A stretch of 32,000 bases of DNA from Coprobacillaceae bacterium (GCA_963675915.1 OY780959.1:1440001-1472000); one strand, 5' to 3'. Positions 3,076 through 23,376 are shown, numbered from the stretch's first letter. The notes: a model not told the origin generated them from the letters alone. Numbers and translations are program-made.

Positions 3076-3093
3076 TTGTGATATTCTTAACAA
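3076..3093. promoter_or_regulatory. Rex-like operator candidate
   Basis: TTGTGATATTCTTAACAA has half-sites TTGTGA and TTGTTA (reverse complement) with Rex-type spacing (TTGTGAAnnnnTTCACAA). It lies in the divergent capA-like / NifU-like intergenic region. Confidence 0.35.
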
Positions 3094-3117: not shown

Positions 3118-3146
3118 TTGACTAACCCCCTCATTTTTATTATAAT
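3118..3146 (+). promoter_or_regulatory. Near-consensus sigma-A promoter of the NifU-like/GGGtGRT operon
   Basis: TTGACT (3118-3123), an exact 17-nt spacer, then TATAAT (3141-3146). Confidence 0.6.
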
Positions 3147-3217
3147 CCTCCTAGTGGACAAAAAGCCGCTACAATATCAAGTTGCAATCATTACAATATG
3201 AAAGGAGTATTTCAAAG

Positions 3218-3910
3218 ATGAATTACACACACGAAATCGAACAAATGCAATGTGTCAAAATTGGTGCATCGCATGGTTGCGCTCCAATTCCTCAAGAAGG
3301 AAAATGGGTATACTCAAGACAAATCACTGATATTTCAGGATTAACTCACGGTGTTGGTTGGTGTGCTCCTCAACAAGGTGCTTGTAAATTAACATTAAAC
3401 GTTAAAGAAGGTATCATTGAAGAAGCATTAATCGAAACTATCGGATGTTCAGGAATGACTCACTCTGCTGCAATGGCTTCAGAAGCTATCGTAGGGAAAA
3501 CAGTATTAGAAGCATTAAACACAGACTTAGTTTGTGATGCTATCAACACTGCAATGAGAGAATTATTCTTACAAATCGTTTACGGACGTTCTCAAACTGC
3601 ATTCTCAGAAGGTGGATTACCAGTTGGTGCCGGACTTGAAGATTTAGGTAAAGGTTTAAGATCTCAAGTTGGTACAACTTATGCTACTAAAGCAAAAGGA
3701 CCACGTTACTTAGAGTTAGCTGAGGGATATATTACTCGTTTAGGTTTAGATGCTGATGGTGAAACTTGCGGGTACGAATTCATTTCTCTTGGAATTATGA
3801 TGGATTTAATCAAAAAAGGTAAAGATGCTAATGAAGCTATGGCCGAAGCTACAAAAACTTACGGTAGATTCGCTGATGCAGCTACATACATCGATCCAAG
3901 ATGCGAGTAG
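3218..3910 (+). CDS. NifU/IscU-like iron-sulfur scaffold-domain protein with a C-terminal extension
   Basis: The track ORF starts at 3182, but the ATG at 3218 (MNYTHEIEQ...) has an AAAGGAG SD 10 nt upstream. The IscU-like Cys pattern is present (GWCAPQQGACKL..., ETIGCSGMTHSAAMASEAIVGKT..., LVCDAI). Codon usage looks like that of a highly expressed gene (tta, ggt, gct, cgt). Confidence 0.75.
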   Translation: MNYTHEIEQMQCVKIGASHGCAPIPQEGKWVYSRQITDISGLTHGVGWCAPQQGACKLTLNVKEGIIEEALIETIGCSGMTHSAAMASEAIVGKTVLEALNTDLVCDAINTAMRELFLQIVYGRSQTAFSEGGLPVGAGLEDLGKGLRSQVGTTYATKAKGPRYLELAEGYITRLGLDADGETCGYEFISLGIMMDLIKKGKDANEAMAEATKTYGRFADAATYIDPRCE

Positions 3911-3922
3911 GAGGAAGAGATA

Positions 3923-4921
3923 ATGCCATTATTTGAAAGTTATGACCGTAGAATTAATCAAATCAACGCTACATTAGCTCAATACGGGATCAAAGATCTT
4001 GATGAAGCAAAAGCTATCTGTGATGCTAAAGGTGTAGACGTTTACGAAATCGTTAAATCAACACAACCAATTTGTTTTGAAAATGCTTGTTGGGCATACA
4101 TTACTGGTGCTGCAATCGCAATCAAAGAAGGAGCTACTACTGCTGTAGACGCTGCTAAATTGATCGGGGTTGGATTACAATCATTCTGTATCCCTGGTTC
4201 AGTTGCTGACCAACGTAAAGTAGGTCTTGGACATGGTAACTTAGGTTCAATGTTATTGACTGAAGAAACTAAATGTTTCGCTTTCTTGGCTGGACATGAA
4301 TCATTCGCTGCTGCTGAAGGTGCAATCAAAATCGCTGAAGCTGCAAATCGTGTGCGTAAAGATCCTTTACGTGTTATCTTAGATGGACTTGGAAAAGACG
4401 CGGCTAAAATCATTTCAAGAATCAACGGATTCACTCACGTTGAAACTGAATTCGATTATGCTACTGGAGACTTAAAAGAAGTTTCACGTAAATCATACTC
4501 TGACGGACCTCGTGGAAAAGTAAACTGCTATGGTGCTGATGACGTACGTGAAGGTGTTGCAATCATGCACCGTGAAGGTGTTGACGTATCAATCACTGGT
4601 AACTCAACTAACCCTACACGTTTCCAACATCCAGTTGCTGGAACATACAAAAAAGAATGTTTAGAACAAGGTAAAAAATACTTCTCAGTAGCATCTGGTG
4701 GTGGTACTGGACGTACATTACACCCTGATAACATGGCTGCTGGTCCTGCTTCTTACGGTATGACAGATACAATGGGAAGAATGCATAGTGATGCTCAATT
4801 CGCTGGTTCTTCTTCAGTACCTGCTCACGTTGAGATGATGGGATTAATCGGTATGGGTAACAACCCAATGGTTGGTGCTACTGTTGCCGTTGCTGTTGCT
4901 CTTGAAGAAGCTTCTAAATAA
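3923..4921 (+). CDS. GGGtGRT-motif protein (conserved family of unknown function)
   Basis: 332-aa ORF containing the eponymous SVASGGGTGRTLHPDN motif. The start lies 12 nt after the upstream stop, with a GGAGGAAGAG SD. Codon bias matches the upstream gene. Confidence 0.85.
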   Translation: MPLFESYDRRINQINATLAQYGIKDLDEAKAICDAKGVDVYEIVKSTQPICFENACWAYITGAAIAIKEGATTAVDAAKLIGVGLQSFCIPGSVADQRKVGLGHGNLGSMLLTEETKCFAFLAGHESFAAAEGAIKIAEAANRVRKDPLRVILDGLGKDAAKIISRINGFTHVETEFDYATGDLKEVSRKSYSDGPRGKVNCYGADDVREGVAIMHREGVDVSITGNSTNPTRFQHPVAGTYKKECLEQGKKYFSVASGGGTGRTLHPDNMAAGPASYGMTDTMGRMHSDAQFAGSSSVPAHVEMMGLIGMGNNPMVGATVAVAVALEEASK

Positions 4922-4950
4922 TTAGAAACTCTTTATAATATTAGATAATT

Positions 4951-4980
4951 AAGACCTCCTGATTTTCAGGAGGTCTTTTC
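4951..4980 (+). terminator. Intrinsic terminator
   Basis: AAGACCTCCTGA-ttt-TCAGGAGGTCTT forms a 12-bp perfect stem followed by TTTT. Confidence 0.85.
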
Positions 4981-5135
4981 ATATTCCAAATCAGAACCCC
5001 CCCCGCTCTGACTTTATTATCAAAATAATTTATAGAGCATATAAATATCTTTGATAATAATTTATTGTAATGATAATAATAATTGTGCTATTATGTTGTC
5101 ATGTCATATAATTATTGATACGAGGGAGGAAATTT

Positions 5136-6894: not shown

Positions 6895-8325
<1,431 letters not shown>

Positions 8326-8427: not shown

Positions 8428-9321
8428 TTACTTAAGATGTTTTCTCACAAAGTCGATTACAATATCGAAGATTTCATCCTGATAGAATGCCGGTCCGCCA
8501 TGATCAGCGTAGCGCAGGCGGTAGAAATCAACTTCCTTGTCTTTGGCCTTGAGTTCCTGATAAAGTTTGATGCTGTGGTCAAAAGATACCGTGCGGTCCT
8601 TGGTTCCATGAATCATCAGAATCGGTGGGATATCCCGATCGAGATATTCCATTGGCAGCGTCTTGCGGGCCAATTCGTGATTATCAAGAACATTCACTCT
8701 GCCCAAAAATACTCCTTCAGGGCTGTCGGGCTGTTGATGATTAGGGGTATTCGGAAATCCGTCTGTCATGGTGATGTCGACAACCCCGTAAAAATCGATT
8801 ATCCCGTTGACAACACTTGGATAATCAAGATACAGTTCTCCTTGCAAATCCGCAGCGCCGGTCAGTCCCGTCAACAGGGCGGTATGTCCTCCTGACGAGT
8901 CCCCCCAGACAAATATATTATTCGCGTCAACCCGGTACTGATCCGCATTTTTCCGCAAAAATCTGATGGCATTCTTGGTATCCTCGACTTGAGCCGGGAA
9001 TGGTGCAATCGTACTCTCCCGATATTCCACAATTGCCACTACATAACCCCGATGTGCCAGATAGCCAAAATCTGCCACGTGATTATAAACATTCTGTTTG
9101 AACCAAGCCGAACCTTGGACAAATACCAGGGTGGGATATTTATCAGCTCCATTTTCCCTTTTTGAAGGCTGAATTAGCTGCAACTTCCGCGAAACATCCC
9201 CATAACAGGCATATTCCACATCAGGAACGTAGACGCTGTTCAATTTGCTGTCATCCATGACCAAGGTTTTGATCCCTTCAATCATGGTTTCATTTTCCTT
9301 GAATTCATCATAATCGTACAT
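8428..9321 (-). CDS. Alpha/beta-hydrolase esterase (acetyl/feruloyl-esterase-like), cytoplasmic
   Basis: The ATG at 9321 (MYDYDEF...) has an AAGAGGA SD, whereas the track start at 9339 is a TTG without one. The nucleophile elbow is VWGDSSGGH, and HGTKDRTV lies near the C-terminus. There is no signal peptide. Confidence 0.8.
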   Translation of the reverse strand: MYDYDEFKENETMIEGIKTLVMDDSKLNSVYVPDVEYACYGDVSRKLQLIQPSKRENGADKYPTLVFVQGSAWFKQNVYNHVADFGYLAHRGYVVAIVEYRESTIAPFPAQVEDTKNAIRFLRKNADQYRVDANNIFVWGDSSGGHTALLTGLTGAADLQGELYLDYPSVVNGIIDFYGVVDITMTDGFPNTPNHQQPDSPEGVFLGRVNVLDNHELARKTLPMEYLDRDIPPILMIHGTKDRTVSFDHSIKLYQELKAKDKEVDFYRLRYADHGGPAFYQDEIFDIVIDFVRKHLK

Positions 9322-9370
9322 TTTCTGTCCTCTTTTCAATAATTTTAAGCTCAGGATGGGTGACTATTAA

Positions 9371-11706: not shown

Positions 11707-13122
<1,416 letters not shown>

Positions 13123-13315: not shown

Positions 13316-14470
13316 TTATCCGTTGTATGCTTTTTTGTATACTTCAAGAATTTCTTCGCTGACACATGGACGAGGATTCCCGCCAGTGCAGACATCAGCC
13401 ATAGCAGCATCAGTCAAGGCTTCAAGATCTTCTTCTTTAACGCCGATTTCTTTTAAAGTTTGAGGAATTCCACAGTCTTTAGACAGTTGGATTACCGCGT
13501 CAATGGCAGCTTGACGATATTCATCCTGAGTCATCCCGGCAGTATCGACACCCATAACTTCAGCGATGTCTTTGAATTTTTCTCCAGTGAAATCTTTGTT
13601 GTATTCCATAACATATGGCAGCAATACTGCGTTGGCAACTCCATGAGGAGTATCATAGAAAGCACTTAATGGATGCGCCATCCCGTGGACAACACCTAAC
13701 CCGACATTCGAGAATGCCATTCCGGTAACGTATTGACCCAAAGCCATGTCCTCACGACCTTTGGCATCATTGTCACAAGCTTTACGCAAGCTTCTGGCAA
13801 TCAATTCAATTGCTTTAAGATTCAGGGTATCCGCCAATTCCCAAGCAGCTAAAGTAGTATAACCTTCGATTGCATGAGTCAAAGCATCCAAACCAGTTGC
13901 TGCAGTCAGACCTTTTGGCATTGATGCCATCATATCCGGATCGACAACAGCTACAACCGGGATATCATGAGGATCGACACATACGAATTTACGTTTGTTT
14001 TCAACGTCAGTGATAACATAGTTGATTGTAGTTTCAGCAGCAGTACCGGCAGTAGTAGCTACCGCGATGATTGGCACGCATTTGTTTTTAGTTGGCGCAA
14101 CACCTTCAAGTGAACGCACATCAGCGAATTCCGGATTGTTTACGATGATCCCGATTGCTTTTGAGGTATCCTGTGGCGAACCACCACCGATTGCGATCAT
14201 GTAATCAGCACCGCTTTCTTTGAATTTGGCTACCCCGGCTTGAACTACTTCGATTGATGGGTTTGCAACAACTTCATCAAAGATTTCGTAAGCAAGTCCC
14301 GCTTCATCAAGAAGATCGGTAACTTTTTTAACCACATTGAATTTAACCAAGTCTTTGTCAGTAACAATCAATGCTTTTTTGAATTGTCTTGTTTTTGCTT
14401 CAGTGACGATTTCGTTAATCGCTCCGCTTCCATGATAACTTGTTTCGTTTAAGATAAATCTGTTTGCCAT
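13316..14470 (-). CDS. fucO: Lactaldehyde reductase / 1,2-propanediol oxidoreductase (iron-containing ADH family)
   Basis: 384-aa ORF. It reads MANRFILNETSYHGSGAI..., with the Fe-ADH motifs GGGSPQDTSKAI and THAIEGY..., and the His cluster GVVHGMAHPL. It follows rhaD after a 14-nt gap. Confidence 0.85.
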   Translation of the reverse strand: MANRFILNETSYHGSGAINEIVTEAKTRQFKKALIVTDKDLVKFNVVKKVTDLLDEAGLAYEIFDEVVANPSIEVVQAGVAKFKESGADYMIAIGGGSPQDTSKAIGIIVNNPEFADVRSLEGVAPTKNKCVPIIAVATTAGTAAETTINYVITDVENKRKFVCVDPHDIPVVAVVDPDMMASMPKGLTAATGLDALTHAIEGYTTLAAWELADTLNLKAIELIARSLRKACDNDAKGREDMALGQYVTGMAFSNVGLGVVHGMAHPLSAFYDTPHGVANAVLLPYVMEYNKDFTGEKFKDIAEVMGVDTAGMTQDEYRQAAIDAVIQLSKDCGIPQTLKEIGVKEEDLEALTDAAMADVCTGGNPRPCVSEEILEVYKKAYNG

Positions 14471-14484
14471 TTCCTTATTCTCCC

Positions 14485-15312
14485 TTATTTTTCAAATAAA
14501 AATTCTTCTGGTAATGTAACATTGAAATCGTTTGCCAGTTGTTTGAACTCTCCTACTTGGATTGTTTGCAGTTTAGTAGGTTGGATTGATAATACTTTAA
14601 CCAGGATTTCCGCTGATTTTTCAACTGTGTGCATCAAACCGAAAGTAAGATCAAAGTCTTCTCCTGAACAGAACATTCCATGATGAGCCCAGATGGCAAC
14701 ATCATATTTTTCCATCAGTTTTGAAGTCGCAACTGCGATTTCACGTCCACCAGGAACCATCCAAGGAACCATTCCGACCCCAGCTGGGAATACAACCGGA
14801 CATTCAGTTGCCATTTCCCATAATTCACGAGTGAAGATCTCATCTTTAAGTGGTAAGACGAATGTCAATGCGATCACATTGGTAGTATGAGCATGATAAA
14901 TTACGCGGTGAGTTCCATTTGAAGCCGCTTTTTTAACAGCATGGTTCATCAAATGTGATGGAAGTTCACTGGTTGGTTTACCTCCGTCATTAAGTCCCCA
15001 TTGAATTTGGTATTTAGTTCCTGTTTCATCGATTTTGATGATAGCGATATTGTTTTCAGGATCCAAAGCCACATTACGGAAATATTTCCCTGATCCGGTA
15101 ACCAGGAAATATTCATTTGCCAGGCTAGGAACTTCTGTTCCGATTTCCACCCAGGCACCATCTGTTTTCATCATTGATAAAACTGGTGCGATTTCTTCGT
15201 CTTTGACACGGTAAGTAAGGTTCCCCCCGTTTCTTTCATGCCATCCTTGATTGAATCCGTCATCACATAATCTGATGAACCCAGTAATAAATTCTAATTT
15301 TAAAATATCCAT
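14485..15312 (-). CDS. rhaD: Rhamnulose-1-phosphate aldolase
   Basis: I prefer the start at ATG 15312 (MDILKLEFITGFIRLCDDGFNQGWHERNGGNLTYR...). It has an AAGAGGAG SD and sits 1 nt after the rhaA stop, whereas the track start at 15348 would overlap rhaA. The class II aldolase His motifs are present (HAHTTN, HHGMF). Confidence 0.9.
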   Translation of the reverse strand: MDILKLEFITGFIRLCDDGFNQGWHERNGGNLTYRVKDEEIAPVLSMMKTDGAWVEIGTEVPSLANEYFLVTGSGKYFRNVALDPENNIAIIKIDETGTKYQIQWGLNDGGKPTSELPSHLMNHAVKKAASNGTHRVIYHAHTTNVIALTFVLPLKDEIFTRELWEMATECPVVFPAGVGMVPWMVPGGREIAVATSKLMEKYDVAIWAHHGMFCSGEDFDLTFGLMHTVEKSAEILVKVLSIQPTKLQTIQVGEFKQLANDFNVTLPEEFLFEK

Positions 15313-15313
15313 G

Positions 15314-16570
15314 TTAAGCTCCTCTTTTTGATAATACTTCTTCTTCATACGCTTCGATTTCTTTAAACCAATCGAAGTAAGTTGGTAATCCGTTTTTCTC
15401 CATATAGTAGTTCCATACGTCGGCCATCGGATATGTTTTCAATTCTTCCTGGATTGCCATGATTTTGGTGAAGTTTCCTTCATCCTGCAATTTTGACAGC
15501 AATTCATTTGGCATCAATAAGGCATTAAGCATTGCTTTTTGCATATTGTGCATTCCCACTACCCAAGCACTGATTCTGTTGATGCTGGCATCGAAGAAAT
15601 CCAGACCTAACAAGACACGATCCATAGCATCATTGCGGACGATTTCTTTGGCAATTTCCTTTGTTTCATCATCGAAAAGAACCACGTGGTCACTGTCCCA
15701 TCTAACCGGACGAGTAACATGCAAAGCCACCTTGTCATTGAACAGCAGCATCGCCGACAATTTGTCAGAAACAACTTCGGTTGGATGATAGTGTCCGTTG
15801 TCCATCAATGGTACGATATCAGCTTCTTTGGCATAGTTGATTGTGAATTCGCTTGAACCAACTGTATATGATTCCATCCCGATTCCAAATACTTTGGATT
15901 CTAGACAAACCAATACTTTTTCTTTGTCATAATCGATTGCCAGAATTTCATCAAGAGATTCCTTGAATCTTCTTCTTGGCGCCATGCGGTCACCAGGAAT
16001 ATCTTTCATTCCATCAGGAATCCAGATGTTCATCAAACATGGAGTTCCCAATTCATTTGCGAAATATTCACTGATTCGAATACACGCTTGACAGTGTTTG
16101 ATCCAGAAATCACGGATTTTTTGATCAGGTGATGAAAGAGTCAATCCCGCTGCTTTTGGATGAGAGAAGATTGTTGGATTGAAATCCAGTCCCAGTCCTC
16201 TTTCTTTGGCATACTCAACCCATTTGGCGAAATGTTTTGGTTCCAGAGCATCACGGTCAACTGTTTCCCCATCTTCAAAAATCGCATACGATGCATGAAG
16301 ATTGATGCGGTGTTTACCGGCAGTCAGTGAAAGTACTTTGTCGATGTCAGCCATCAACTCAGCTGGAGTAGTTGCTTTTCCCGGGTAATTCCCAGTTGTT
16401 TGAATTCCTCCAGAAAGGGCTCCGGCTCCGTCGAATCCGACTACGTCATCACCTTGCCAGCAGTGCATTGAGATTGGGAAACTGTCAAGTTTTGCCAATG
16501 CTCCATCAACATCGATTCCCATTCCTTCATAAATTTTCTTTGCTTCTAAATATTTGTTTTCTAAGCTCAT
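15314..16570 (-). CDS. rhaA: L-rhamnose isomerase
   Basis: 418-aa ORF of the same length class as characterised RhaA. Typical stretches are present ([33 protein letters not shown]). Confidence 0.9.
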
Positions 16571-16584
16571 ATATATCTCCTCGT

Positions 16585-17961
16585 TTAATAGATCTTAATA
16601 TCGAATGAATCGTGAATCATTTGGCGACCGGCTTCGAGATCTTCGATAACCCCGTCACTGATCAGCTGGCTGAGAATATTACCCAGCGCGGTAGCTTCGA
16701 TCGGACCGGCCACGACTTTCTTGTTGCAAGTAGCACTGATCATTTCATTAAGCAGCACATTCTGGCATCCTCCGCCGATGATGTTGACTGCTTCATAAGT
16801 ACGGTTGGTGATTGCTTCTAGTTGTTCGATTGCTTCTTTGTAGCTGTAAGCGAGCGAATTGTAGACACAATATGCCATTTCTCCGGTTGTCTTTGGATAG
16901 TCTAGATTACGTTCCTTGAAGTAAGCGATGATTTCATCGGCCATGTTCTCAGGTTTCAAGAAACGGTCATCATTGACATCGAACACTCCTTCAAACGGTT
17001 CCTTGCGGGCTAGTTCCACCAACTCGCCAAAAGTGTATTTTCCAGCGTATTCGCGGGCAACTTCCTGGATGATCCACAGTCCCATGATGTTTTTAAGGAA
17101 ACGGTAGCGGTAGCCATACCCACCTTCATTGGTGAAATTGGCTTCCCTTGCTTCATTTGTGACAATCGGATCAAGAGTTTCAATTCCCAGCAAAGACCAG
17201 GTTCCCGATGAAAGGATGACACTGTCTTTTTCAATGCTGGCCATATAGGCGCTTCCGGTATCATGAGTAGCCGGTACCACGACCTCACAGTCGAATCCGA
17301 TTTCCTCTTTGATTGCCTCGCAAAAACCACCGATGTTGGTTCCCGGCATCACCATTTTCTTGAAAATGCTTTTGTCCATCCCGGTCAGGCCGACCAGTTC
17401 ATCATCCAGTTCGTTGGTTTGGATGTTTAACATCTGGGTTGTCGACATGTTCGTGTACTCATTGACCATCGCTCCGGTTAACAGGTAATTGAGATAGTCA
17501 GGTACCATCAGATAGTGACAAGCTGATTTGCGGGTTTCATCACTGTCGCTGGCCAGCTGATAAAGGGTATTGAATTTTTGGAATTGGATTCCGGTCTTTC
17601 CATAAAGCTGTTCCAACGGCATCTGGTCAAAAATAGCTTTGACTCCCACTTCGGTACGGCTGTCGCGATATGCATATACTCCGTTGATCAGGTTTTCATC
17701 CTGGTCAAGCAGGGCATAATCGACGGCCCAGGTATCGATTGCCATTGTTTTGGGGATCTTGGCTAGTTTGGCACATTCTTTAAGACCAGCTTTGATCTGT
17801 TCAAAAAGATACTCGATATCCCAATGATAATGTCCTTCTTTTTTTACTACATTGTTTTTGAAACGATATACTTCTTCGAGTTCCAGTTTGTTGTTGTTGA
17901 CGTGACACAAAATATGGCGTCCGCTGGAAGCTCCGATATCTATTGCTAAGTAATAATTCAT
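16585..17961 (-). CDS. rhaB: Rhamnulokinase (FGGY carbohydrate kinase family)
   Basis: 458-aa ORF. The N-terminus is [19 protein letters not shown] motifs are present ([14 protein letters not shown]). It lies immediately upstream of rhaA. Confidence 0.9.
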
Positions 17962-18003
17962 ATTTCCACCTCAACTACAGTATAAAAAAAAACAGCCCCC
18001 GAT

Positions 18004-18032
18004 ATAATATCGTGAGTTGTTTTATTTATTAA
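18004..18032 (-). promoter_or_regulatory. Candidate activator-dependent promoter of rhaBAD-fucO
   Basis: The minus strand reads TTAATA (18032-18027), a 17-nt spacer, then TATTAT (18009-18004). The weak -35 is compatible with AraC-type activation. Confidence 0.35.
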
Positions 18033-18082
18033 CCTATTTTGCAACGGAACCGTTTACACCGACTTATCGGTCACAGTTGTTA

Positions 18083-19078
18083 TTAATTGTTTCCTAAAGC
18101 CCGGTTTTGGCGGTAATCTTTCGGTTTCAGGCCGTATTTACGGCTGAAAATCTTGTAAAAATAAGTCATATTATCATAACCGACCTCCCTGATTATTGAC
18201 GCAACTGGTAAATTGGTCGTTTTAAGCAGATTGGCCGCCTGGGTCAGTCGCACTTCCTGAACCAGCTGTTTGAAAGTCTTGTTGGTGGCTTTTTTTACCA
18301 GCTTGCAGATTTTATAATCCGGTTGGTTGATTTGTTTTGAAAGTTCCACCAGCGTTGCATCCTGATAATTCTGTTCGATGTATTTATAGATGCTTGAAAC
18401 CACCATTTTATCATAACTGTCTTGCGTATACGTTTCAGTCAGCTCGGGATAGTACATCAAATCGGTAAGCAACAGTCCCACCAGCAGTTTCAAGGTCACC
18501 AGACTGGGATTCTTCCCGGAATAGAGGTTGTTGATGATCTCCTCGACGTCCCGTTGGATCTTATCGATGGCCGCCACCTTGAACATCAAATATTCGCCAT
18601 TATGGTCCGAAGAAAAGAGCGAGTTGAAAATGAATTTGTTGATCTCATTGTCTTCATCGATCATCGTTGAAAGAAAATCGAGGAAATCCGGTTTGATGAT
18701 GAAATTGAAGATGATGTCGTTTTCACCGCAATAGTCGATCGAATGTTCGATATTCTGATTTAACAGCAGCAAATCGCCCTCCTTGATGACAATTTCATTG
18801 CCCTCGATATGGTGGGTCATCTGGCCGGAGTAGACGTACATCAGTTCAAGATAGTTGTGACGATGAAGCGGATACTCCATGAACCGCGAATGTTTCCGGA
18901 TTGCCAGCTGTTCATTGTCACCGAGAATCTTGTTGGCATCGATGATATTGGAATCATCATTCAAGAAGATGCTCAAATCGATCATCTTCTTATTGTTGAG
19001 ATTGTCGATTTCTTCATCATTGAAGCAAATCAGTTTTTCAAGAATATCTTTGGAAATCAATGTCCGGCCCTCCTTCAT
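18083..19078 (-). CDS. AraC-family transcriptional regulator (cupin sensor plus HTH), probable rhamnose regulator
   Basis: There is a C-terminal double HTH (..TLVELSKQINQPDYKICKLVKK..., ..VASIIREVGYDNMTYFYKIFSRKYGLKPKDYR). The N-terminal cupin reads PLHRHNYLELMYVYSG. The start is uncertain: either ATG 19078, or TTG 19060, which lies 8 nt after an AAGGAGG SD. The track start at 19102 lies upstream of the probable TSS. Confidence 0.8.
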   Translation of the reverse strand: MKEGRTLISKDILEKLICFNDEEIDNLNNKKMIDLSIFLNDDSNIIDANKILGDNEQLAIRKHSRFMEYPLHRHNYLELMYVYSGQMTHHIEGNEIVIKEGDLLLLNQNIEHSIDYCGENDIIFNFIIKPDFLDFLSTMIDEDNEINKFIFNSLFSSDHNGEYLMFKVAAIDKIQRDVEEIINNLYSGKNPSLVTLKLLVGLLLTDLMYYPELTETYTQDSYDKMVVSSIYKYIEQNYQDATLVELSKQINQPDYKICKLVKKATNKTFKQLVQEVRLTQAANLLKTTNLPVASIIREVGYDNMTYFYKIFSRKYGLKPKDYRQNRALGNN

Positions 19079-19103
19079 ATGTCGCGCAACTGTAACTATC
19101 AAG

Positions 19104-19112
19104 ATTATATCA
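19104..19112 (-). promoter_or_regulatory. Extended -10 promoter element for the AraC regulator
   Basis: The minus strand reads TGaTATAAT. No good -35 is present. Confidence 0.4.
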
Positions 19113-19145
19113 TATTTGGGCCTCGCAACCCAAAAATTGTAACAA

Positions 19146-19169
19146 GAAAAAGCAGGGATTTCCCCTGCT
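19146..19169 (-). terminator. Intrinsic terminator after the anchored esterase gene
   Basis: The minus strand reads AGCAGGG-gaaat-CCCTGCT followed by TTTTC. Confidence 0.8.
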
Positions 19170-19174
19170 TTGGA

Positions 19175-21016
19175 TTATGCTTTTTTAGTACGTTTAACCA
19201 GAATGTAGGCAACAACTGCTACTACTGCCACTCCACCGACAATCACAATCGGATTGATTGGTGAAGAAGTATCTTCAGTTACGAATTTAACTGCTCCGGT
19301 TTCGGTATCTCTTTGATAGTTATCCATGAAATCATAGATATAAGCCGCTTCCGGTTTGTAGTTCCAGTGAGCCAGATCTTTAACCGCTGCCAATTGAATC
19401 ATGACACCTTCATCGTTAGATAATGTACCAACCATCATAGTCTTGTCACCAAGCATTTCTTCATGCCAGTTATCAAGAGCCATACCATAATATTCGTTGG
19501 CAGTCATATCCATCTCAGTCACTTCAAAGCCATTTATTTTTTGATAAGCCTGTAAAGCTGGATAAATATTGGTAGCCGAATCCATTTGCCAGATATTGGC
19601 TCCACCATCAGTCAATTCAGTCAGACCATGAGTACTTGATCCGTCAACCGGAATCATTTGGAAGAAGTCATGATCACCACAAAGGTACAGATATGGAGTC
19701 GGATTTCCTTGATAGTCTTCAATCAAAGTCTGGATTTCATCATTATAAACGTTAACCCCAGAGTTTACTCCGACTGCCGCGAACACATCGCTGTATTTGA
19801 TTCCCAGTAATGATGATTTAGCCCCACCTTGAGACAACCCGTTAAGGTAAATTCTTGAGGTATCGATTTGTGGATATTTAACTTCCAGATCTTTGATCAG
19901 GTTGATTACCCCTTCATCACCTAGACCATCACCACCGAAGAAGTTGTTTTCAGTTGCATCCTGATATTCTGGTGAAACCAAGATAAAGTTTTTCTCAGCT
20001 GCCAATTCAGCCCATCCTGAGGCATCACCTTGAAGACGAGGATCGTTTTGGTTACCATGTAATGAAATTACCAATGGTACCGTACCATCACTGCTGGCCA
20101 TTGCTGTGTCCGGAATATATTCAAACCAAGTATAAGCTCCTGGCATGTTTGATACCGGTTGATCAAACATTTGATTATAAGTGATTCCCAAATCTTCAAA
20201 TTGAGGGATTTCTACCAATGTGTATGGCTCGAATACACCTTCTAATACACTACCAACGAAGTTAACTCCGACAATCGGCATGTTGTAGAATTCAGTAATT
20301 GAAATGTGATGTCTGTAGTTTTTCGAGAAAACCGCATCCCAGGCATTGGCGAACGCTTCAGCCAAAGTTTCTTCCCCGGCTGCCACACCAACTTGTTGTA
20401 GAGGTGCCGCTGAATTCACTTCCAGGCTATAGTTGTCCATTGATTCAGTCTTGTCAGTTGCATTGGCTTGTTTGTAATAAGCTACTGCTCCTTCGCTTTG
20501 CCCGCTCAAATATGCCGGTACGGAAACATTGTAATCCAAACCTTCATTCATTTCGCCACCGTATACCATGATCCCGGCAACAAAATAACAATTCTGACTT
20601 ACATAGTTGTTGACGAAAGTAGCTCCGTCTTCAATCCCGATAACTTTGACGTTTTTAGCGATTCCCACCGAACCGATAAAAGCATCCAGGTCGTCTTGGG
20701 TATATTCAGTTCCATTAGCCGGTGAAACCACATGAACTTCAGCCGCCCACTCTTGAATGTTGTCAAGCATTCCCAATTCATCAATCAGGCTGTTTGCTTC
20801 TTCAGTTGTTTTGTTTCCAGCGAAAATGTAGTAAGTCGGCGTCATTAAATCACTGTAAATAGAAGTATATCCGTCTTCATAAGCCTTATAGCTTGAAGTT
20901 GAAGCGCTTACATCGCTTGGGCTAAAAATATTGGCAGCTGCATCTACATTGCTTACCGACATAAGTGCACCAGCCATCATTGACATTGCTAAAAAGATAT
21001 TTAATTTTTTTCTCAT
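19175..21016 (-). CDS. Exported, C-terminally membrane-anchored esterase (PHB-depolymerase/feruloyl-esterase-like alpha/beta hydrolase) with an unassigned N-terminal domain
   Basis: 613-aa ORF. The signal peptide is MRKKLNIFLAMSMMAGALMSVSNVDAA. The hydrolase core is LVISLHGNQND...LNGLSQGGAKSS...CGDHDF. The C-terminal TM segment plus basic tail is IVIVGGVAVVAVVAYILVKRTKKA, with no LPXTG. The SD is GAGGAG. Confidence 0.7.
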   Translation of the reverse strand: MRKKLNIFLAMSMMAGALMSVSNVDAAANIFSPSDVSASTSSYKAYEDGYTSIYSDLMTPTYYIFAGNKTTEEANSLIDELGMLDNIQEWAAEVHVVSPANGTEYTQDDLDAFIGSVGIAKNVKVIGIEDGATFVNNYVSQNCYFVAGIMVYGGEMNEGLDYNVSVPAYLSGQSEGAVAYYKQANATDKTESMDNYSLEVNSAAPLQQVGVAAGEETLAEAFANAWDAVFSKNYRHHISITEFYNMPIVGVNFVGSVLEGVFEPYTLVEIPQFEDLGITYNQMFDQPVSNMPGAYTWFEYIPDTAMASSDGTVPLVISLHGNQNDPRLQGDASGWAELAAEKNFILVSPEYQDATENNFFGGDGLGDEGVINLIKDLEVKYPQIDTSRIYLNGLSQGGAKSSLLGIKYSDVFAAVGVNSGVNVYNDEIQTLIEDYQGNPTPYLYLCGDHDFFQMIPVDGSSTHGLTELTDGGANIWQMDSATNIYPALQAYQKINGFEVTEMDMTANEYYGMALDNWHEEMLGDKTMMVGTLSNDEGVMIQLAAVKDLAHWNYKPEAAYIYDFMDNYQRDTETGAVKFVTEDTSSPINPIVIVGGVAVVAVVAYILVKRTKKA

Positions 21017-21046
21017 ACTCTTCTCCTCAATTTCTTAATTAGGGGA

Positions 21047-21077
21047 AATGAAAAGATAACAATGTTATCTTTTCATT
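21047..21077 (-). terminator. Long perfect hairpin between the GH78 and esterase genes (partial terminator or processing/stability element)
   Basis: AATGAAAAGATAACA / TGTTATCTTTTCATT forms a 13-15 bp stem. The minus-strand tail is UUCCCC, so the U-tract is poor. Confidence 0.45.
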
Positions 21078-21082
21078 CAGTT

Positions 21083-23350
21083 TTAGTTTTCTTTTATTTC
21101 GAAAGTGTAGTGATTTTCATTTTGAGACTCACTCAAAACCTCATAATTATCTGCAAAAGAGATTTGATAATCTTTCAAACCTTCAGGCAATTCCAGTTCA
21201 TAAGTGACCTTGTCATTTGCCCGATACCATGAAACTTCGATAGCTCCCTGGTTTGATTGGTAAGAACAGTTGAATTTATTCATATTTTTGGAGAAATAGG
21301 GACTAAAGCTCAACTTGTTTGATCCAATTGCATCATCTTCAACCCGGATTCCCGCCAGTCCCTGGTAATACCATTGGACATAACTTGAGAACATCGCATG
21401 ATTATAAGATGAGTATTTGTTGAAGAACTGTTCTTCCAGAATCTTGCTGCCTTTGGCCAGCATGAATTTGAATGAAGGTTGTTCTTCCTTGTTCAACCAG
21501 GCATCAATGATATCATCATAGTGATACTTGTTCAAGGCATCATAAATGAATGACATTCCAAAGATTCCTGAGTTCAGGACATAATCATCTGCAGCGATGC
21601 GATTAGCCAGTTGTTTTACCAGCAGCTTTGTGTCGCCAAGTCCGGATTCAATTGCGAAAGCATATCCGGTATGGGTCTTGTCGCCAAATGACATGTCATC
21701 ATTTTGGAAATTGGCAGTAATTTCCGCTTTGATTTCATTATATTTGTCCAGGTATTTGTCTTCCTGACAAGCAAGATATCCTTGGATTTTAAGCAGATAT
21801 TCCACAAACAGGAGAATTGTACAATATCCTGTGAACACTTTGTCCGGTGTCGATGTTTTGAAGTTTCCGGCAGTCAGAATACTTCCGTGATCGCCCAGAC
21901 AGTGGTTAGCCAAAGTCGCCAGGTCGAATGTCAGCAGATAATCAACCAGTTTCTTGACATAAGGATATTCGGTTTTCACTGCTTCCAAGTCACCGTAATA
22001 TTGGTAATTCTTGACAACCAGGAATGGGTAGACAAATTGCCATAACAATGGTCCTTCACCGTAGGCAGTTCCATTCGATCCGATTCCCATAAAAGGAGCG
22101 GTTTCCGGAACTCCGCCGTTTTCAGTTTGTTCAATTCTGAAATCGACGATTGTTTTTTGATACATTGTTTTGACATCAAATACAAACAGATTTGATTGGG
22201 CCAAGGCAACGATGTCGCCACCGTATGCCAGTCTCTCTCTGGCGCAATCTTCAAAAACACCGTGAATGTTGTTAAGTTTGGTTCTGATGGCTGCGTCATA
22301 CAATTCGTTGTAGAATTCATTGTCACAGTCCACCCGTCCAGTGAATTCCAAATCGGTATGGACATAGATTGCTTCCACATCAACCAGATCTTCCTTGGTG
22401 ATTCCTTTAATCAAGGCATATCTGAATGAATGGTAAGTGAACTTATTGATAAATTCGTTCACGCCTTCTTGACAGATGATCCGATCGGTCTGGATTGCCT
22501 TTTCCGGAGCTCCAGGACCACCGGTGACATGATGATTTTCAATAACCATTCCCACGCTTCCGGCATAACTAGATTCGAATTCAAGTTTTCCGTCAACTTG
22601 ATACTCACTGTAAGTAATGACCACTTCATCACCTTTTTTGGCTTTGAACTTGATATTGATATAACCGGAAATCATCTCATGAAAATCGATTTGGATTCCC
22701 TCGTCATTTTCCATGAAAGTATATTCACTGACACGGTTGCATTGTTTTGTTTTTGGGATAAAGCTAGGTAAATAATTTCTGCGATCAGCAACAGTCAAGA
22801 CCGGTTTCAATTCTTCATCATGATAGGTCAGGTCTGCTGTTTCTCCAAGATAGAGGTTGTTGAACAGGAGATTCCCGTTGACCCAGTTCCATGATTTGTC
22901 TGAAGAAAGAATGATCTTGTCATCGACAGCGATATCACAGATGACTTTTGGAGTACCGACTTCCGCTAATTTTTCGCGAAGGTTGTACTTGCCAAACAGT
23001 TTCAATGGTGATGGATTATACATTCCATTACCCAGTTCAATTTCAAGATAATTTATTCCGTCATTGAGGTAATTGGAAATGTCATACTCATCATAGTAGA
23101 CAATTTTTTGATAGTTGGTCCAGTCGGAATTGAGTTCATCTTCTCCCACTCTATGGCCGTTTAAAGTTACGATGTAGTAACCAAGTGAAGCGACATAGAT
23201 GCTGGCTTTTTCAAAATTGTCGACAGTAAATTCTTTTTTAAGGATGGTATTATGATCATTCTGGTAGTAATTCGCATCACCTTCACCATAATCATATTCT
23301 TTTGCAAAAATCCATTCTCCTCGAAATAAACTATCTTTACTTAAACTCAT
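21083..23350 (-). CDS. GH78 alpha-L-rhamnosidase, cytoplasmic (no signal peptide)
   Basis: 755-aa ORF. The N-domain pattern is YIVTLNGHRVGEDELNSDWTNY...LGNGMY. The catalytic (alpha/alpha)6 motifs are EDCARERLAYGGD and HAMFSSYVQWYYQGLAGIRV. Confidence 0.85.
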   Translation of the reverse strand: MSLSKDSLFRGEWIFAKEYDYGEGDANYYQNDHNTILKKEFTVDNFEKASIYVASLGYYIVTLNGHRVGEDELNSDWTNYQKIVYYDEYDISNYLNDGINYLEIELGNGMYNPSPLKLFGKYNLREKLAEVGTPKVICDIAVDDKIILSSDKSWNWVNGNLLFNNLYLGETADLTYHDEELKPVLTVADRRNYLPSFIPKTKQCNRVSEYTFMENDEGIQIDFHEMISGYINIKFKAKKGDEVVITYSEYQVDGKLEFESSYAGSVGMVIENHHVTGGPGAPEKAIQTDRIICQEGVNEFINKFTYHSFRYALIKGITKEDLVDVEAIYVHTDLEFTGRVDCDNEFYNELYDAAIRTKLNNIHGVFEDCARERLAYGGDIVALAQSNLFVFDVKTMYQKTIVDFRIEQTENGGVPETAPFMGIGSNGTAYGEGPLLWQFVYPFLVVKNYQYYGDLEAVKTEYPYVKKLVDYLLTFDLATLANHCLGDHGSILTAGNFKTSTPDKVFTGYCTILLFVEYLLKIQGYLACQEDKYLDKYNEIKAEITANFQNDDMSFGDKTHTGYAFAIESGLGDTKLLVKQLANRIAADDYVLNSGIFGMSFIYDALNKYHYDDIIDAWLNKEEQPSFKFMLAKGSKILEEQFFNKYSSYNHAMFSSYVQWYYQGLAGIRVEDDAIGSNKLSFSPYFSKNMNKFNCSYQSNQGAIEVSWYRANDKVTYELELPEGLKDYQISFADNYEVLSESQNENHYTFEIKEN

Positions 23351-23376
23351 GATATCAAATAATCAAAAGAAGAAGA

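What the first reader, a model, noticed from the sequence alone, without database searches (positions are those of the whole stretch)
3118..4980. Strongly insulated NifU/IscU-like plus GGGtGRT two-gene module of unknown function with hallmarks of high expression
**Seen in the sequence.**
- The promoter is near-consensus (TTGACT-17-TATAAT).
- Both SDs are strong.
- The intergenic gap is 12 nt.
- A perfect 12-bp stem terminator follows.
- Codon usage differs markedly from the neighbouring genes (Leu mostly TTA, Gly GGT, Ala GCT, Arg CGT), which is the style usually seen in highly expressed Firmicute genes.

**Established knowledge.** GGGtGRT is a conserved family with no assigned function. The partner has the IscU-type Cys ligand pattern plus an extra C-terminal region of about 100 aa.

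**Inference.** This is an abundant Fe-S-dependent two-component enzyme or carrier. Nothing else in the window explains it.
Basis: partly seen in the sequence, partly recalled or inferred. Interest (0 to 1): 0.62.

Follow-up and report, generated by a model that had tools for sequence, protein, structure and literature searches.

The report
Conserved NifU-like plus GGGtGRT operon
This is a typical copy of a two-gene operon found in almost identical form in anaerobes from many phyla; it probably encodes an abundant two-subunit iron-sulfur protein of unknown job, and a divergent branch that always sits next to phosphoglycerate mutase genes gives a first testable clue.

Summary
The window carries:
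- a near-consensus promoter at 3118-3146
- two strong ribosome-binding sites
- a 12-nt gap between a 230-aa IscU-fold gene (3218-3910) and a 332-aa GGGtGRT gene (3923-4921)
- a perfect 12-bp terminator stem at 4951-4977
- codon usage of the translational-selection type, unlike any neighbour

The pair is adjacent in 77 of 77 informative species loci across at least five phyla, at about 80% amino-acid identity. No other neighbour recurs. One lineage carries the two genes as a natural fusion.

GGGtGRT has no solved structural relative. The model shows a helical domain plus a Rossmann-like domain. Its invariant glycine-rich loops are the least confident parts.

The partner keeps three invariant Cys and one invariant His. 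It lacks IscU's labilising Asp, its His, and any nearby cysteine desulfurase.

Published work on relatives shows high abundance, iron-dependent expression, and a Bacteroides transposon hit in the same glucose-sensing screen as phosphofructokinase.

New here:
- a divergent clade (54% identity) keeps the pair and, in 7 of 7 lineages, sits in one module with phosphoglycerate mutases and a histidine phosphatase
- Rex-like boxes are enriched upstream of the operon

Verdict: an ordinary member of a catalogued but uncharacterised family. It is most likely a heteromeric Fe-S enzyme of central anaerobic metabolism. Its function remains unproven.

The parts
3076..3093 (+). Rex-like inverted repeat TTGTGATATTCTTAACAA, 25 nt upstream of the -35. 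It is a tentative operator.
   Evidence: It has 2 mismatches to TTGTTAA-N4-TTAACAA. That clostridial Rex consensus is recalled from memory. Sites with at most 3 mismatches occur upstream of the operon in 23 of 81 loci. The background is 10% in AT-rich 250-nt windows of the same loci and 5.6 of 81 in shuffles.
3118..3146 (+). Sigma-70-type promoter TTGACT-17-TATAAT.
   Evidence: It matches 11 of 12 positions. It is the only + strand site of that quality in the window. Both hexamers are conserved in position in L001-L004 and L008.
3152..3171 (+). 5'-proximal leader hairpin, TAGTGG / loop of 8 nt / CCGCTA, beginning about at the transcription start.
   Evidence: RNAfold predicts it. Relatives have a hairpin at the same place with a different sequence (AGGTGA...TCACCT). 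Two pairs are changed on both sides in the window, and U-G wobbles occur in L003 and the window. There is no Rfam match. A role as an mRNA stabiliser is inference.
3202..3207 (+). Shine-Dalgarno sequence AAGGAG of the first gene.
   Evidence: Read; it lies 10 nt before the ATG at 3218.
3218..3910 (+). IscU-fold ('NifU-like') subunit, 230 aa. It has an IscU-like domain at about residues 40-122, a conserved linker at 123-149 and a C-terminal domain at 151-225.
   Evidence: Pfam NifU_N scores 25.1 bits and NCBIfam scaffold equivalogs score far below their cut-offs. The AF2 model has pLDDT 66. Foldseek matches IscU/SufU at probability about 1.0 over 95-114 columns, but no PDB match has E below 0.001. 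H44, C49, C77 and C106 are invariant in 81 distinct sequences.
3910..3914 (+). Shine-Dalgarno sequence GGAGG of the second gene, overlapping the stop codon of the first.
   Evidence: Read; it lies 8 nt before the ATG at 3923. The intergenic gap is 12 nt.
3923..4921 (+). GGGtGRT subunit, 332 aa. It has an N-terminal helical domain (1-111) and a Rossmann-like alpha/beta domain (118-293). The GGGTGRT motif is at residues 259-265.
   Evidence: PF14057 scores 645 bits. The AF2 model has pLDDT 86 and pTM 0.88, with low-confidence loops at 228-233 and 261-284. No PDB relative was found. 94 positions are invariant in 87 distinct sequences.
4951..4987 (+). Intrinsic terminator: a 12-bp perfect stem, a 3-nt loop and a weak T tail.

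Best explanation
**What it is.** The locus is a self-contained, strongly expressed bicistronic operon. It encodes the two subunits of one heteromeric iron-sulfur protein.

**Subunit A.** This is an IscU-fold protein rebuilt for a permanent role.
- It has three universally conserved Cys (C49, C77, C106), a fourth Cys (C56) in 99% of sequences, and an invariant His44.
- It has no labilising Asp and no LPPVK chaperone motif.
- It carries an extra, highly conserved linker and a C-terminal domain.

**Subunit B (GGGtGRT).** This supplies a Rossmann-like alpha/beta domain. Its invariant glycine-rich loops (AGHES, GLGK, TGNST, GGGTGRT-x-HPD) follow beta strands. In such folds that is the usual place for binding a phosphate group of a substrate or cofactor.

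**Proposed working.** The cluster on A sits at or near the A-B interface. It acts either as a catalytic (Lewis-acid) centre or as a one-electron centre for a reaction on a phosphorylated small molecule held by B.

**Physiological role.** I place it in central anaerobic carbon and redox metabolism. The most likely position is at the level of the three-carbon phospho-acids (2-/3-phosphoglycerate and their neighbours), not in housekeeping Fe-S cluster assembly.

**What is shown.** Gene anatomy, universal pairing, extreme conservation, the folds, and the conserved residues.

**What is inferred.** Cluster binding, complex formation, the phosphate-binding role of the loops, and the link to phosphoglycerate.

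**My own split of the confidence.**
- Heteromeric Fe-S protein that is not an assembly scaffold: about 0.6.
- Phosphoglycerate-level substrate: about 0.25-0.3.
For: **Obligate pair.**
- The partner gene lies directly upstream, on the same strand, in 77 of 77 informative loci from different GTDB species.
- The gap is below 80 nt in 76 loci, typically 11-21 nt, and 472 nt in one.
- These loci cover Bacillota, Bacteroidota, Desulfobacterota, Fibrobacterota and Spirochaetota.
- The pair is also present in Vibrio and in a Methanobacteriaceae MAG.
- No other neighbour recurs.

**Physical partnership.**
- One lineage has the stop codon changed (TAA-type to TCA), giving a 569-aa fusion.
- The same fusion is seen in two independent assemblies.

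**Constraint.**
- Identity is about 80% across phyla.
- At 50% clustering of 1.84 billion proteins, the listed hits collapse to essentially one mainstream cluster and one divergent cluster.
- 94 of 332 positions in GGGtGRT and 57 of 230 in the partner are invariant.

**Cluster site.**
- The N-terminal domain has the IscU/SufU fold.
- H44, C49, C77 and C106 are invariant.
- IscU Asp39 aligns with Ala55.

**Not a scaffold.**
- No IscS/NifS/SufS-like gene lies within 6 kb in about 100 loci, or anywhere in the window.
- Scores against scaffold equivalogs are 16-29 bits against cut-offs of 92-273.

**Link to iron and central metabolism in relatives.**
- BT0173-74 falls 11- to 13-fold under iron depletion (PMC10434189).
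- Both proteins are abundant, iron-responsive spots in C. pasteurianum (PMC5395762).
- It co-varies with GAPDH, PPDK and PEPCK in the rumen (PMC7035244).
- BT0173-4::Tn came out of the same screen as pfkA for loss of glucose silencing of Cur (bioRxiv 10.64898/2026.04.10.717545).

**Phosphoglycerate lead.**
- The divergent clade is about 54% identical to the mainstream and keeps its own partner.
- In 7 of 7 lineages examined it lies in one module: ApgM, partner, GGGtGRT, an unknown membrane protein, and His_Phos_1.
- Some lineages add iPGM or a phosphoglycolate-phosphatase-like HAD enzyme.
- The ApgM and the iPGM pass NCBIfam cut-offs for phosphoglycerate mutase.

**Redox link.** Rex-like boxes are enriched upstream of the operon.

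**High expression here.** The codon pattern is that of translational selection. The promoter is conserved and a 5' hairpin follows it.
Against: - No experiment shows a cluster, a complex or an activity.
- The complex could not be modelled.
- The partner model is only moderate (pLDDT 66), and its conserved linker is unresolved.
- GGGtGRT has only one nearly invariant Cys (C202), so it cannot hold a cluster by itself.
- In the 80 mainstream loci no phosphoglycerate mutase or other glycolytic gene is nearby. The phosphoglycerate link therefore rests on a small divergent clade. At least two of its loci lie next to mobile-element genes: a transposase in L081 and an integrase in L098. That clade may have a specialised function.
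- The B. thetaiotaomicron phenotype is modest (2-fold), with no growth defect on glucose, and could be indirect.
- Reading the loops as phosphate-binding rests on motif position, not on a detected homology. Foldseek hits to Rossmann-like proteins have TM of 0.3 or less when normalised to the query.
- The Rex consensus is recalled from memory. The window's site lies upstream of the -35, which is unusual for a repressor.
Confidence: 0.5

Rival explanations
1. It is an Fe-S cluster biogenesis, storage or delivery module. The NifU-like protein acts as a scaffold or reservoir for clusters. GGGtGRT is its accessory, for example a sulfur or iron donor, a release factor or a carrier partner. The module supplies the very high Fe-S demand of anaerobes.
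For: - The IscU/SufU fold with conserved Cys.
- Expression tracks iron supply in Bacteroides and Clostridium (PMC10434189, PMC5395762).
- High abundance would suit a reservoir (PMC11204068).
- Public annotation calls the partner a scaffold.
Against: - No cysteine desulfurase is nearby in about 100 loci, and no Fe-S assembly gene recurs as a neighbour.
- IscU Asp39 is replaced by Ala and no LPPVK motif is present (sequence). Val105 stands where IscU His105 would fall if C106 matches IscU C106, which is my reading beyond the aligned stretch. These changes favour a stable cluster, not a transferable one.
- Scaffold equivalog models score far below their cut-offs.
- The divergent clade travels with phosphoglycerate mutases, not with Fe-S machinery.
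- The Bacteroides mutant grows normally (bioRxiv 10.64898/2026.04.10.717545).
Confidence: 0.2
2. It is a redox enzyme or electron carrier that has nothing to do with phosphoglycerates. GGGtGRT binds a nucleotide or flavin cofactor through its glycine-rich loops. The IscU-fold subunit passes electrons to or from ferredoxin. One example would be an NAD(P)H- or ferredoxin-linked reductase in fermentation balance or in oxygen/nitrosative stress defence.
For: - The weak Foldseek matches are mostly NAD(P)-binding Rossmann proteins, such as transhydrogenase domain III and several dehydrogenases.
- The TGNST and TGRT loops resemble the flavodoxin phosphate loop T/S-x-T-G-x-T. This is from memory and was not tested.
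- Rex-like boxes are enriched upstream.
- The protein is co-expressed with rubrerythrins in vivo (PMC11204068).
- A rubredoxin gene lies next to the pair in the archaeal locus.
- It is down-regulated with other iron-rich redox proteins (PMC10434189).
Against: - No significant match to any flavoprotein or dehydrogenase family by sequence or fold.
- No canonical GxGxxG motif follows the first strand; the sequence there is AGHES.
- It does not explain the constant phosphoglycerate-mutase neighbourhood of the divergent clade, or the hit in the glucose-sensing screen.
Confidence: 0.2
3. The unusual codon usage reflects recent horizontal acquisition of an AT-rich gene pair, not high expression. On this view the cross-phylum similarity is due to gene transfer rather than to functional constraint.
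For: - GC3 is 0.22 against 0.32-0.58 in the neighbours.
- About 80% identity between phyla is hard to reconcile with vertical descent alone.
- The divergent clade sits next to a transposase and an integrase.
Against: - The bias is not simple AT enrichment. C-ending codons are preferred for Phe (87%), Tyr (74%), Asn (71%) and Ile (ATC 70%, ATA 0). Arg is CGT 64%, with no AGG, CGA or CGG.
- Close relatives keep the same promoter and leader hairpin.
- The pair sits in different, non-mobile contexts in the mainstream loci.
- High protein abundance is measured in several relatives (PMC11204068, PMC5395762).
Confidence: 0.07

Closest known systems
GGGtGRT protein family (Pfam PF14057) with its adjacent 'NifU' gene, e.g. 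Bacteroides thetaiotaomicron BT0173-BT0174 and Clostridium pasteurianum F502_05012/05017
   Same: - Full-length family match.
- Same gene order and same short gap.
- 78-88% identity to members from other orders and phyla.
   Different: Nothing of substance; this is a typical member. The family itself has no assigned function. The literature calls it 'poorly characterised' (PMC11204068, PMC12078515).
IscU / NifU N-terminal domain / SufU Fe-S scaffold and sulfur-transfer proteins
   Same: - The fold of residues about 40-122.
- A conserved Cys in the GC(S/G) loop, aligned with IscU C63.
- A Cys at the start of the following helix.
- Three invariant Cys in all.
   Different: - The first ligand is displaced, with Cys at 49 and 56 where IscU has C37.
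- Asp39 is replaced by Ala.
- Val105 stands where His105 would fall if C106 matches IscU C106 (my reading beyond the aligned stretch).
- There is no LPPVK motif.
- 108 extra residues are present, including a conserved linker and a further domain.
- No cysteine desulfurase is nearby.
- There is an obligate non-scaffold partner.
Fe-S hydro-lyases with a three-Cys cluster and an open iron site (two-subunit L-serine dehydratase SdaAB/SdaAA, class I fumarase, aconitase)
   Same: - Only an analogy of design.
- Three conserved Cys.
- Two subunits of about 220 and 300 aa encoded in one operon.
- Abundant in anaerobes and iron-dependent.
- A hydroxy-acid-type substrate is plausible if the phosphoglycerate lead is right.
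   Different: No sequence or fold relationship was detected. No activity is known.
Divergent GGGtGRT module found here (loci L081, L085, L088, L090, L096, L098, L099)
   Same: - The same two proteins with the same invariant residues.
- The two genes are adjacent or overlapping, with a translationally coupled layout.
   Different: - About 54% identity to the window's GGGtGRT.
- Always embedded with ApgM, a histidine phosphatase and an unknown membrane protein.
- Often with an HTH regulator, sometimes with iPGM or a HAD phosphatase.
- L081 lies next to a transposase and L098 next to an integrase.

Membership tests
GGGtGRT protein (Pfam PF14057) | Full-length match to the family model above the gathering score | tested here: met
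   645 bits against a cut-off of 27. Residues 4-330 match profile positions 1-327 of 327.
GGGtGRT protein (Pfam PF14057) | The eponymous GGGtGRT sequence motif | tested here: met
   GGGTGRT lies at residues 259-265. G259, G260, G261, G263 and T265 are invariant in 87 distinct sequences.
GGGtGRT / NifU-like operon | IscU-fold partner gene directly upstream on the same strand | tested here: met
   The gap is 12 nt in the window. The arrangement holds in 77 of 77 informative species loci.
IscU / NifU-type Fe-S assembly scaffold | Score above the curated cut-off of a scaffold family model | tested here: not met
   TIGR03419 scores 29.2 against 187.9. TIGR01999 scores 22 against 192.4. TIGR01994 (SufU) scores 25 against 92.5. 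Only the generic Pfam domain NifU_N passes, narrowly (25.1 against 22), over 59 residues.
IscU / NifU-type Fe-S assembly scaffold | Three Cys ligands at the canonical positions (E. coli IscU C37, C63, C106) | tested here: inconclusive
   C77 aligns with C63. C37 aligns with Gln53, and the nearby Cys are C49 and C56. C106 precedes the helix 107-122, as IscU C106 does, but the HMM alignment ends before it. Three Cys are invariant.
IscU / NifU-type Fe-S assembly scaffold | Labilising Asp next to the first Cys (Asp39), His105, and the LPPVK co-chaperone motif. These features are listed from established knowledge of IscU. | tested here: not met
   Asp39 aligns with Ala55. Residue 105 is Val, which corresponds to His105 only if C106 matches IscU C106; the HMM alignment ends before it. 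No LPPVK occurs in the sequence.
IscU / NifU-type Fe-S assembly scaffold | Genomic association with a cysteine desulfurase (IscS, NifS or SufS) | tested here: not met
   tblastn with E. coli IscS gave no hit at E of 1e-3 or better in any fetched locus or in the window. No recurrent neighbour family was found.
IscU / NifU-type Fe-S assembly scaffold | Transient cluster assembly and transfer to apo-proteins | not testable with these tools
   This needs biochemistry.
FtsZ / tubulin GTPases (signature GGGTG[ST]G, considered because of the motif) | Tubulin/FtsZ nucleotide-binding fold | tested here: not met
   No FtsZ or tubulin chain is among the 50 best Foldseek matches listed. No PDB match has E below 0.001. 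There is no Pfam hit.
Known anti-phage defence or phage families (considered for the divergent module) | Match to PADLOC or PHROGs models | tested here: not met
   Neither library has a hit for GGGtGRT, ApgM or the membrane protein. The exceptions are generic hits: NifU-like and histidine-phosphatase in PHROGs, and weak hits (E above 1e-4) for two neighbouring proteins of L085 in PADLOC.

The most novel reading that the evidence does not exclude
The NifU-like/GGGtGRT complex is a previously unrecognised class of Fe-S enzyme. Its cluster is held on an IscU fold, and it acts on a three-carbon phospho-acid of lower glycolysis. Possible reactions are an iron-sulfur-dependent conversion of 2- or 3-phosphoglycerate that parallels or bypasses enolase, phosphoglycerate mutase or the serine branch. 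It would also be one of the most abundant proteins of gut, rumen and sediment anaerobes. That would add a new reaction or isoenzyme to central carbon metabolism, and a new catalytic use of the IscU fold.
Probability: 0.2. Interest if true: 0.85.

Novelty: new member of a known kind. Interest (0 to 1): 0.6.

Why it matters
The pair is among the best-conserved and most abundant proteins of strict anaerobes that still has no function. It recurs in gut and rumen metaproteomes. It is strongly iron-regulated in Bacteroides. It has now appeared in a genetic screen for sugar sensing.

If it is an Fe-S enzyme of central metabolism, models of fermentation, iron economy and host-diet responses of the microbiota lack a major component.

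This work narrows the problem.
- **Design.** It is an obligate two-subunit protein with three invariant Cys on an IscU fold and phosphate-type loops on a fold with no solved relative.
- **Cheap experiments.** The divergent clade's constant company of phosphoglycerate mutases, and the Rex-like boxes, suggest phospho-acid ligand screens, metabolomics of the existing Bacteroides mutants, and Rex binding tests.

Tried and rejected
- **Modelling the complex.**
  - I tried to use the natural fusion P0049 with a block alignment of both families.
  - MAFFT overlaid the two unrelated families in both attempts.
  - I therefore spent the two structure jobs on the separate subunits.
- **Distant fold searches.**
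  - Only Foldseek against the PDB could be run.
- **Sequence and profile searches of PDB chains for GGGtGRT.** Nothing was found. The best hit was ferritin at E 0.6, which is chance.
- **Lenient Pfam scan of both clades and of the unknown neighbours.** It gave no further family.
- **PADLOC and PHROGs on the divergent module.** Neither recognised it as a known defence or phage system.
- **Rfam and folding of the leader.**
  - There is no riboswitch.
  - The whole-leader folding energy is ordinary, z = -0.5.
- **Conserved neighbours of the mainstream pair.**
  - I clustered all ORFs within 5-6 kb in 80 loci.
  - I searched those loci with tblastn for PGM-type genes.
  - I ran Pfam on neighbours in Desulfobacterota, Fibrobacterota, Spirochaetota, Vibrio and an archaeon.
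  - Nothing recurred.
- **Plasmid and phage collections.**
  - Only chromid-like replicons and unannotated metagenomic 'phage' contigs were found.
  - They gave no contextual clue.
- **Fur, PerR and cre boxes upstream.** None was enriched.
- **FtsZ/tubulin idea from the GGGTG motif.** Rejected, because the fold search gave no support.
- **The 50%-identity representative search.** It returned mostly fragments and chimeras, so it revealed no remote relatives.
Full report
**1. The observation**

The window has two co-oriented genes.
- The first runs from ATG 3218 to the stop at 3908-3910 (230 aa).
- The ORF lister starts it at a TTG at 3182. The homologues are 230 aa, and AAGGAG at 3202-3207 lies 10 nt before the ATG at 3218.
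- The second runs from ATG 3923 to 4921 (332 aa). It is preceded by GGAGG at 3910-3914.
- The gap between the genes is 12 nt.

- TTGACT-17-TATAAT lies at 3118-3146 and matches 11 of 12 positions. It is the best promoter-like site of the region.
- It is the only site of that quality on the + strand of the whole window. About 1.3 such sites are expected on both strands together.
- A perfect 12-bp stem with a 3-nt loop follows at 4951-4977. Its T tail is weak.

Codon usage is far from that of the 22 other long ORFs.

| Measure | The pair | Other ORFs |
|---|---|---|
| Nc | 32-33 | 36-57 |
| GC3 | 0.22 | 0.32-0.58 |
| Leu TTA | 76% | 12% |

The bias is not mere AT-richness.
- C-ending codons are preferred for Phe, Tyr, Asn and Ile, and ATA is absent.
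- Arg is mostly CGT, with no AGG, CGA or CGG.
- This is the pattern of translational selection in low-GC Firmicutes, as I know it from established work.

Family searches give GGGtGRT (PF14057) at 645 bits for the second protein. They give a short, marginal NifU_N match (25.1 bits, residues 55-113) for the first.

**2. Regulatory anatomy seen by comparison**

In five Erysipelotrichaceae relatives (L001-L004, L008) the intergenic DNA differs. The -35 (CATTGACT) and the -10 nevertheless stay in register.

A hairpin follows 5-7 nt after the -10 in all of them.
- The relatives have AGGTGA...TCACCT.
- The window has TAGTGG...CCGCTA at 3152-3171.
- Two pairs are changed on both sides, and there are U-G wobbles. 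This fits an RNA stem better than a DNA operator.
- A 5'-terminal stem of this kind commonly stabilises mRNA. That role is inference here.
- Rfam finds nothing in the region.

TTGTGATATTCTTAACAA at 3076-3093 resembles the clostridial Rex box TTGTTAA-N4-TTAACAA. That consensus is from memory.
- Boxes with at most 3 mismatches occur upstream of the operon in 23 of 81 loci.
- The background is 10% in AT-rich windows of the same loci and 5.6 of 81 in shuffles.
- Fur, PerR and cre patterns are not enriched.

**3. The pair elsewhere**

Among the 80 best loci, the partner gene lies directly upstream on the same strand in 77.
- The three exceptions are loci that end within 121 nt of the GGGtGRT start.
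- The gap is below 80 nt in 76 loci, typically 11-21 nt, and 472 nt in one.

The hosts span many groups.
- Bacillota, Bacteroidota, Desulfobacterota, Fibrobacterota and Spirochaetota.
- Vibrio, Persicobacter and Collinsella.
- A Methanobacteriaceae MAG.

Identity to the window's proteins stays at 77-88% for GGGtGRT and 70-85% for the partner.

A search of 1.84 billion representatives clustered at 50% identity listed essentially fragments and chimeras of one cluster.
- Only two listed hits covering nearly the whole query were below 60% identity.
- One is P0271, at 54%.
- The other is a visibly frameshifted sequence.

Clustering all ORFs within 5-6 kb of the pair in the 80 loci gave no recurrent neighbour. 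The only recurrent 'families' were antisense ORFs inside the two genes.

One lineage has the stop codon of the first gene replaced by TCA.
- This gives a 569-aa in-frame fusion with the ribosome-binding site retained.
- The same sequence occurs in two independent assemblies.
- That supports physical partnership.

**4. The proteins: GGGtGRT**

- The AF2 model is confident (pLDDT 86, pTM 0.88).
- It shows a helical domain (1-111) and a Rossmann-like alpha/beta domain (118-293).
- The two least confident stretches are loops that directly follow strands and carry invariant residues: 228-233 (overlapping TGNST) and 261-284 (from within the GGGTGRT motif onwards).
- Foldseek against the PDB gives no match below E 0.001, and TM is 0.3 or less when normalised to the query. 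The weak hits are generic Rossmann-like proteins.
- Sequence and profile searches of PDB chains give nothing.
- 94 positions are invariant across 87 distinct sequences that include the divergent clade. They include H104, E126, K158, E210, H267, H288 and H302. Only one Cys is nearly invariant (C202, 99%).

**5. The proteins: the partner**

- The model is moderate (pLDDT 66).
- Residues about 40-122 match IscU/SufU structures at probability about 1.0, TM about 0.5 normalised to the target, and about 3 A rmsd for the best matches.
- The linker at 123-149 is highly conserved but unresolved.
- A further domain at 151-225 has no clear relative.
- H44, C49, C77 and C106 are invariant. C56 is Cys in 80 of 81 distinct sequences and Ala in Vibrio.

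Relative to IscU:
- C77 aligns with C63.
- The position of C37 is Gln53.
- Asp39 is replaced by Ala55.
- Residue 105 is Val. It corresponds to IscU His105 only if C106 matches IscU C106, which lies beyond the aligned stretch.
- There is no LPPVK motif.
- NCBIfam scaffold equivalogs score 16-29 bits against cut-offs of 92-273.
- No IscS-like gene lies within 6 kb in any fetched locus, or anywhere in the window.

**6. What the literature adds**

It adds expression and genetics in relatives, not function.
- A monoclonal antibody raised against Segatella copri recognises it (PMC12078515).
- In the rumen metaproteome it changes together with NifU, GAPDH, PPDK and PEPCK (PMC7035244).
- In C. pasteurianum the adjacent F502_05012 and F502_05017 are both iron-responsive gel spots (PMC5395762).
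- In B. thetaiotaomicron, BT0173-74 falls 11- to 13-fold under iron depletion (PMC10434189).
- A 2026 preprint isolated BT0173-4 transposon mutants in a screen for loss of glucose-dependent silencing of the regulator Cur. The other hits were pfkA and an M16 peptidase. The effect was 2-fold, with no growth defect on glucose, and the locus was not pursued (bioRxiv 10.64898/2026.04.10.717545).

**7. A new contextual clue**

Searching with the 54%-identical P0271 recovered a small divergent clade. I inspected seven lineages of it.
- All keep a 221-225-aa partner with the same Cys pattern.
- All lie in one module: ApgM-type phosphoglycerate mutase, partner, GGGtGRT, a 317-332-aa membrane-anchored protein with no family, and a histidine phosphatase of the dPGM superfamily.
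- The lineages differ in what else the module holds:

| Extra element | Loci |
|---|---|
| HTH regulator upstream | several |
| Bacterial iPGM | L088 |
| Phosphoglycolate-phosphatase-like HAD enzyme | L090 |
| Transposase nearby | L081 |
| Integrase nearby | L098 |

- The ApgM passes the NCBIfam equivalog cut-off (517 against 489). The iPGM passes its own (656 against 330).
- The module's ApgM (72-84% identical between lineages), membrane protein (about 50%) and phosphatase (about 43%) are conserved alongside the pair.
- None of these genes occurs near the mainstream pair.
- PADLOC and PHROGs do not recognise the module.

**8. Interpretation**

Shown:
- a bicistronic operon with strong expression signals
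- obligate pairing across phyla
- extreme sequence constraint
- an IscU fold with three invariant Cys but without the features that make IscU clusters labile
- a partner protein with no solved relative and with conserved post-strand glycine-rich loops

Inferred:
- the two proteins form a complex that holds a stable Fe-S cluster
- the loops bind a phosphate-bearing ligand
- the protein works in central carbon and redox metabolism

The inferences have different support.
- The iron response, the abundance and the Rex-like boxes fit a metabolic Fe-S protein.
- The missing desulfurase and the missing scaffold motifs argue against housekeeping cluster assembly.
- The phosphoglycerate-mutase company of the divergent clade, and the Bacteroides screen hit shared with phosphofructokinase, point to the lower part of glycolysis.
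- That last step rests on a minor clade, some of whose loci lie next to mobile-element genes, and on a weak phenotype.

I put about 0.6 on 'heteromeric Fe-S protein, not a scaffold'. I put 0.25-0.3 on a three-carbon phospho-acid substrate.

The rivals are:
- a cluster reservoir or delivery module (0.2)
- a nucleotide- or flavin-dependent redox protein unrelated to phosphoglycerate (0.2)
- horizontal transfer as the cause of the codon bias (0.07)

**9. Comparison and novelty**

The locus is a full member of the catalogued GGGtGRT family, with its usual partner. It differs in nothing important from BT0173-74 or from the copies in other Erysipelotrichales.
- It is not a member of the IscU/NifU/SufU scaffold families by their own criteria, although it shares their fold.
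- The resemblance to three-Cys Fe-S hydro-lyases is one of design only.

The window's instance is therefore a new member of a known kind. The kind itself remains without function or solved structure.

The interest lies in the family. It is an ultra-conserved, abundant unknown of anaerobes.
- universal synteny
- a natural fusion
- the conserved-residue map
- a leader hairpin
- Rex-like boxes
- the phosphoglycerate-mutase module of the divergent clade

Noticed in passing
L081 5997-10606; L085 2572-8580; L088 391-6859; L090 842-6141; L096 301-5405; L098 122-4718; L099 291-6364: A divergent GGGtGRT clade is about 54% identical to the window's protein. It always lies in a conserved module: ApgM phosphoglycerate mutase, NifU-like partner, GGGtGRT, an unknown 317-332-aa membrane protein, and a histidine phosphatase. 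Some lineages add iPGM or a HAD phosphatase and an HTH regulator. L081 lies next to a transposase and L098 next to an integrase. The module is not described in the searched literature.
   Followed up: partly
L094 3001-4710 and L095 1503-3212 (junction at L094 3688-3711): There is a natural in-frame fusion of the NifU-like and GGGtGRT genes. The stop codon is replaced by TCA and the ribosome-binding site is kept. The sequence is identical in two independent metagenome assemblies.
   Followed up: yes
window 3152-3171: A 5'-terminal leader hairpin is conserved in position, with compensatory changes, among Erysipelotrichaceae relatives. It has no Rfam family. It may be an mRNA stabiliser.
   Followed up: partly
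window 6895-8307, - strand: A glycoside hydrolase family 1 gene is split into two ORFs. ORF 7942-8307 matches the N-terminal 112 profile positions, and ORF 6895-7929 matches positions 118-452. This is a frameshift, a pseudogene or a sequencing error. An intact GH1 paralogue lies at 11707-13092.
   Followed up: no
window 9490-9462, - strand: A perfect 12/12 consensus promoter (TTGACA-17-TATAAT) lies about 120 nt upstream of the esterase-family (BD-FAE) gene at 8428-9339. It is the best promoter match in the window.
   Followed up: no
window 13316-24696, - strand: This is an L-rhamnose utilisation cluster. It holds an Fe-alcohol dehydrogenase, a class II aldolase, RhaA, an FGGY kinase, an AraC regulator, an esterase and an alpha-L-rhamnosidase. 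A PTS EIIC gene follows at 23377-24696. Its codon bias (Nc 36, GC3 0.32) is the closest in the window to that of the pair.
   Followed up: no
window 25915-27318, - strand: This is a LarC-type nickel-insertion protein gene (PF01969, 452 bits). It overlaps the next ORF (27297-28037) by 22 nt. It may be part of a lactate-racemase cofactor cluster.
   Followed up: no
P0006, P0008, P0009, P0023, P0241 (database proteins): Several database GGGtGRT entries of 368-494 aa carry internal tandem duplications of 30-160 residues. Others are chimeras, for example P0251, which is fused to an ABC ATPase. Both kinds are probably assembly artefacts. They inflate the apparent number of 50%-identity clusters of this family.
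   Followed up: partly
L092 8242-9951 (Vibrio sp. THAF191d, 1.85-Mb replicon): A facultative anaerobe from the Gammaproteobacteria carries the pair at about 71% identity, next to phenylalanine hydroxylase genes. Its partner has Ala in place of C56, which shows that only three Cys are universal.
   Followed up: partly
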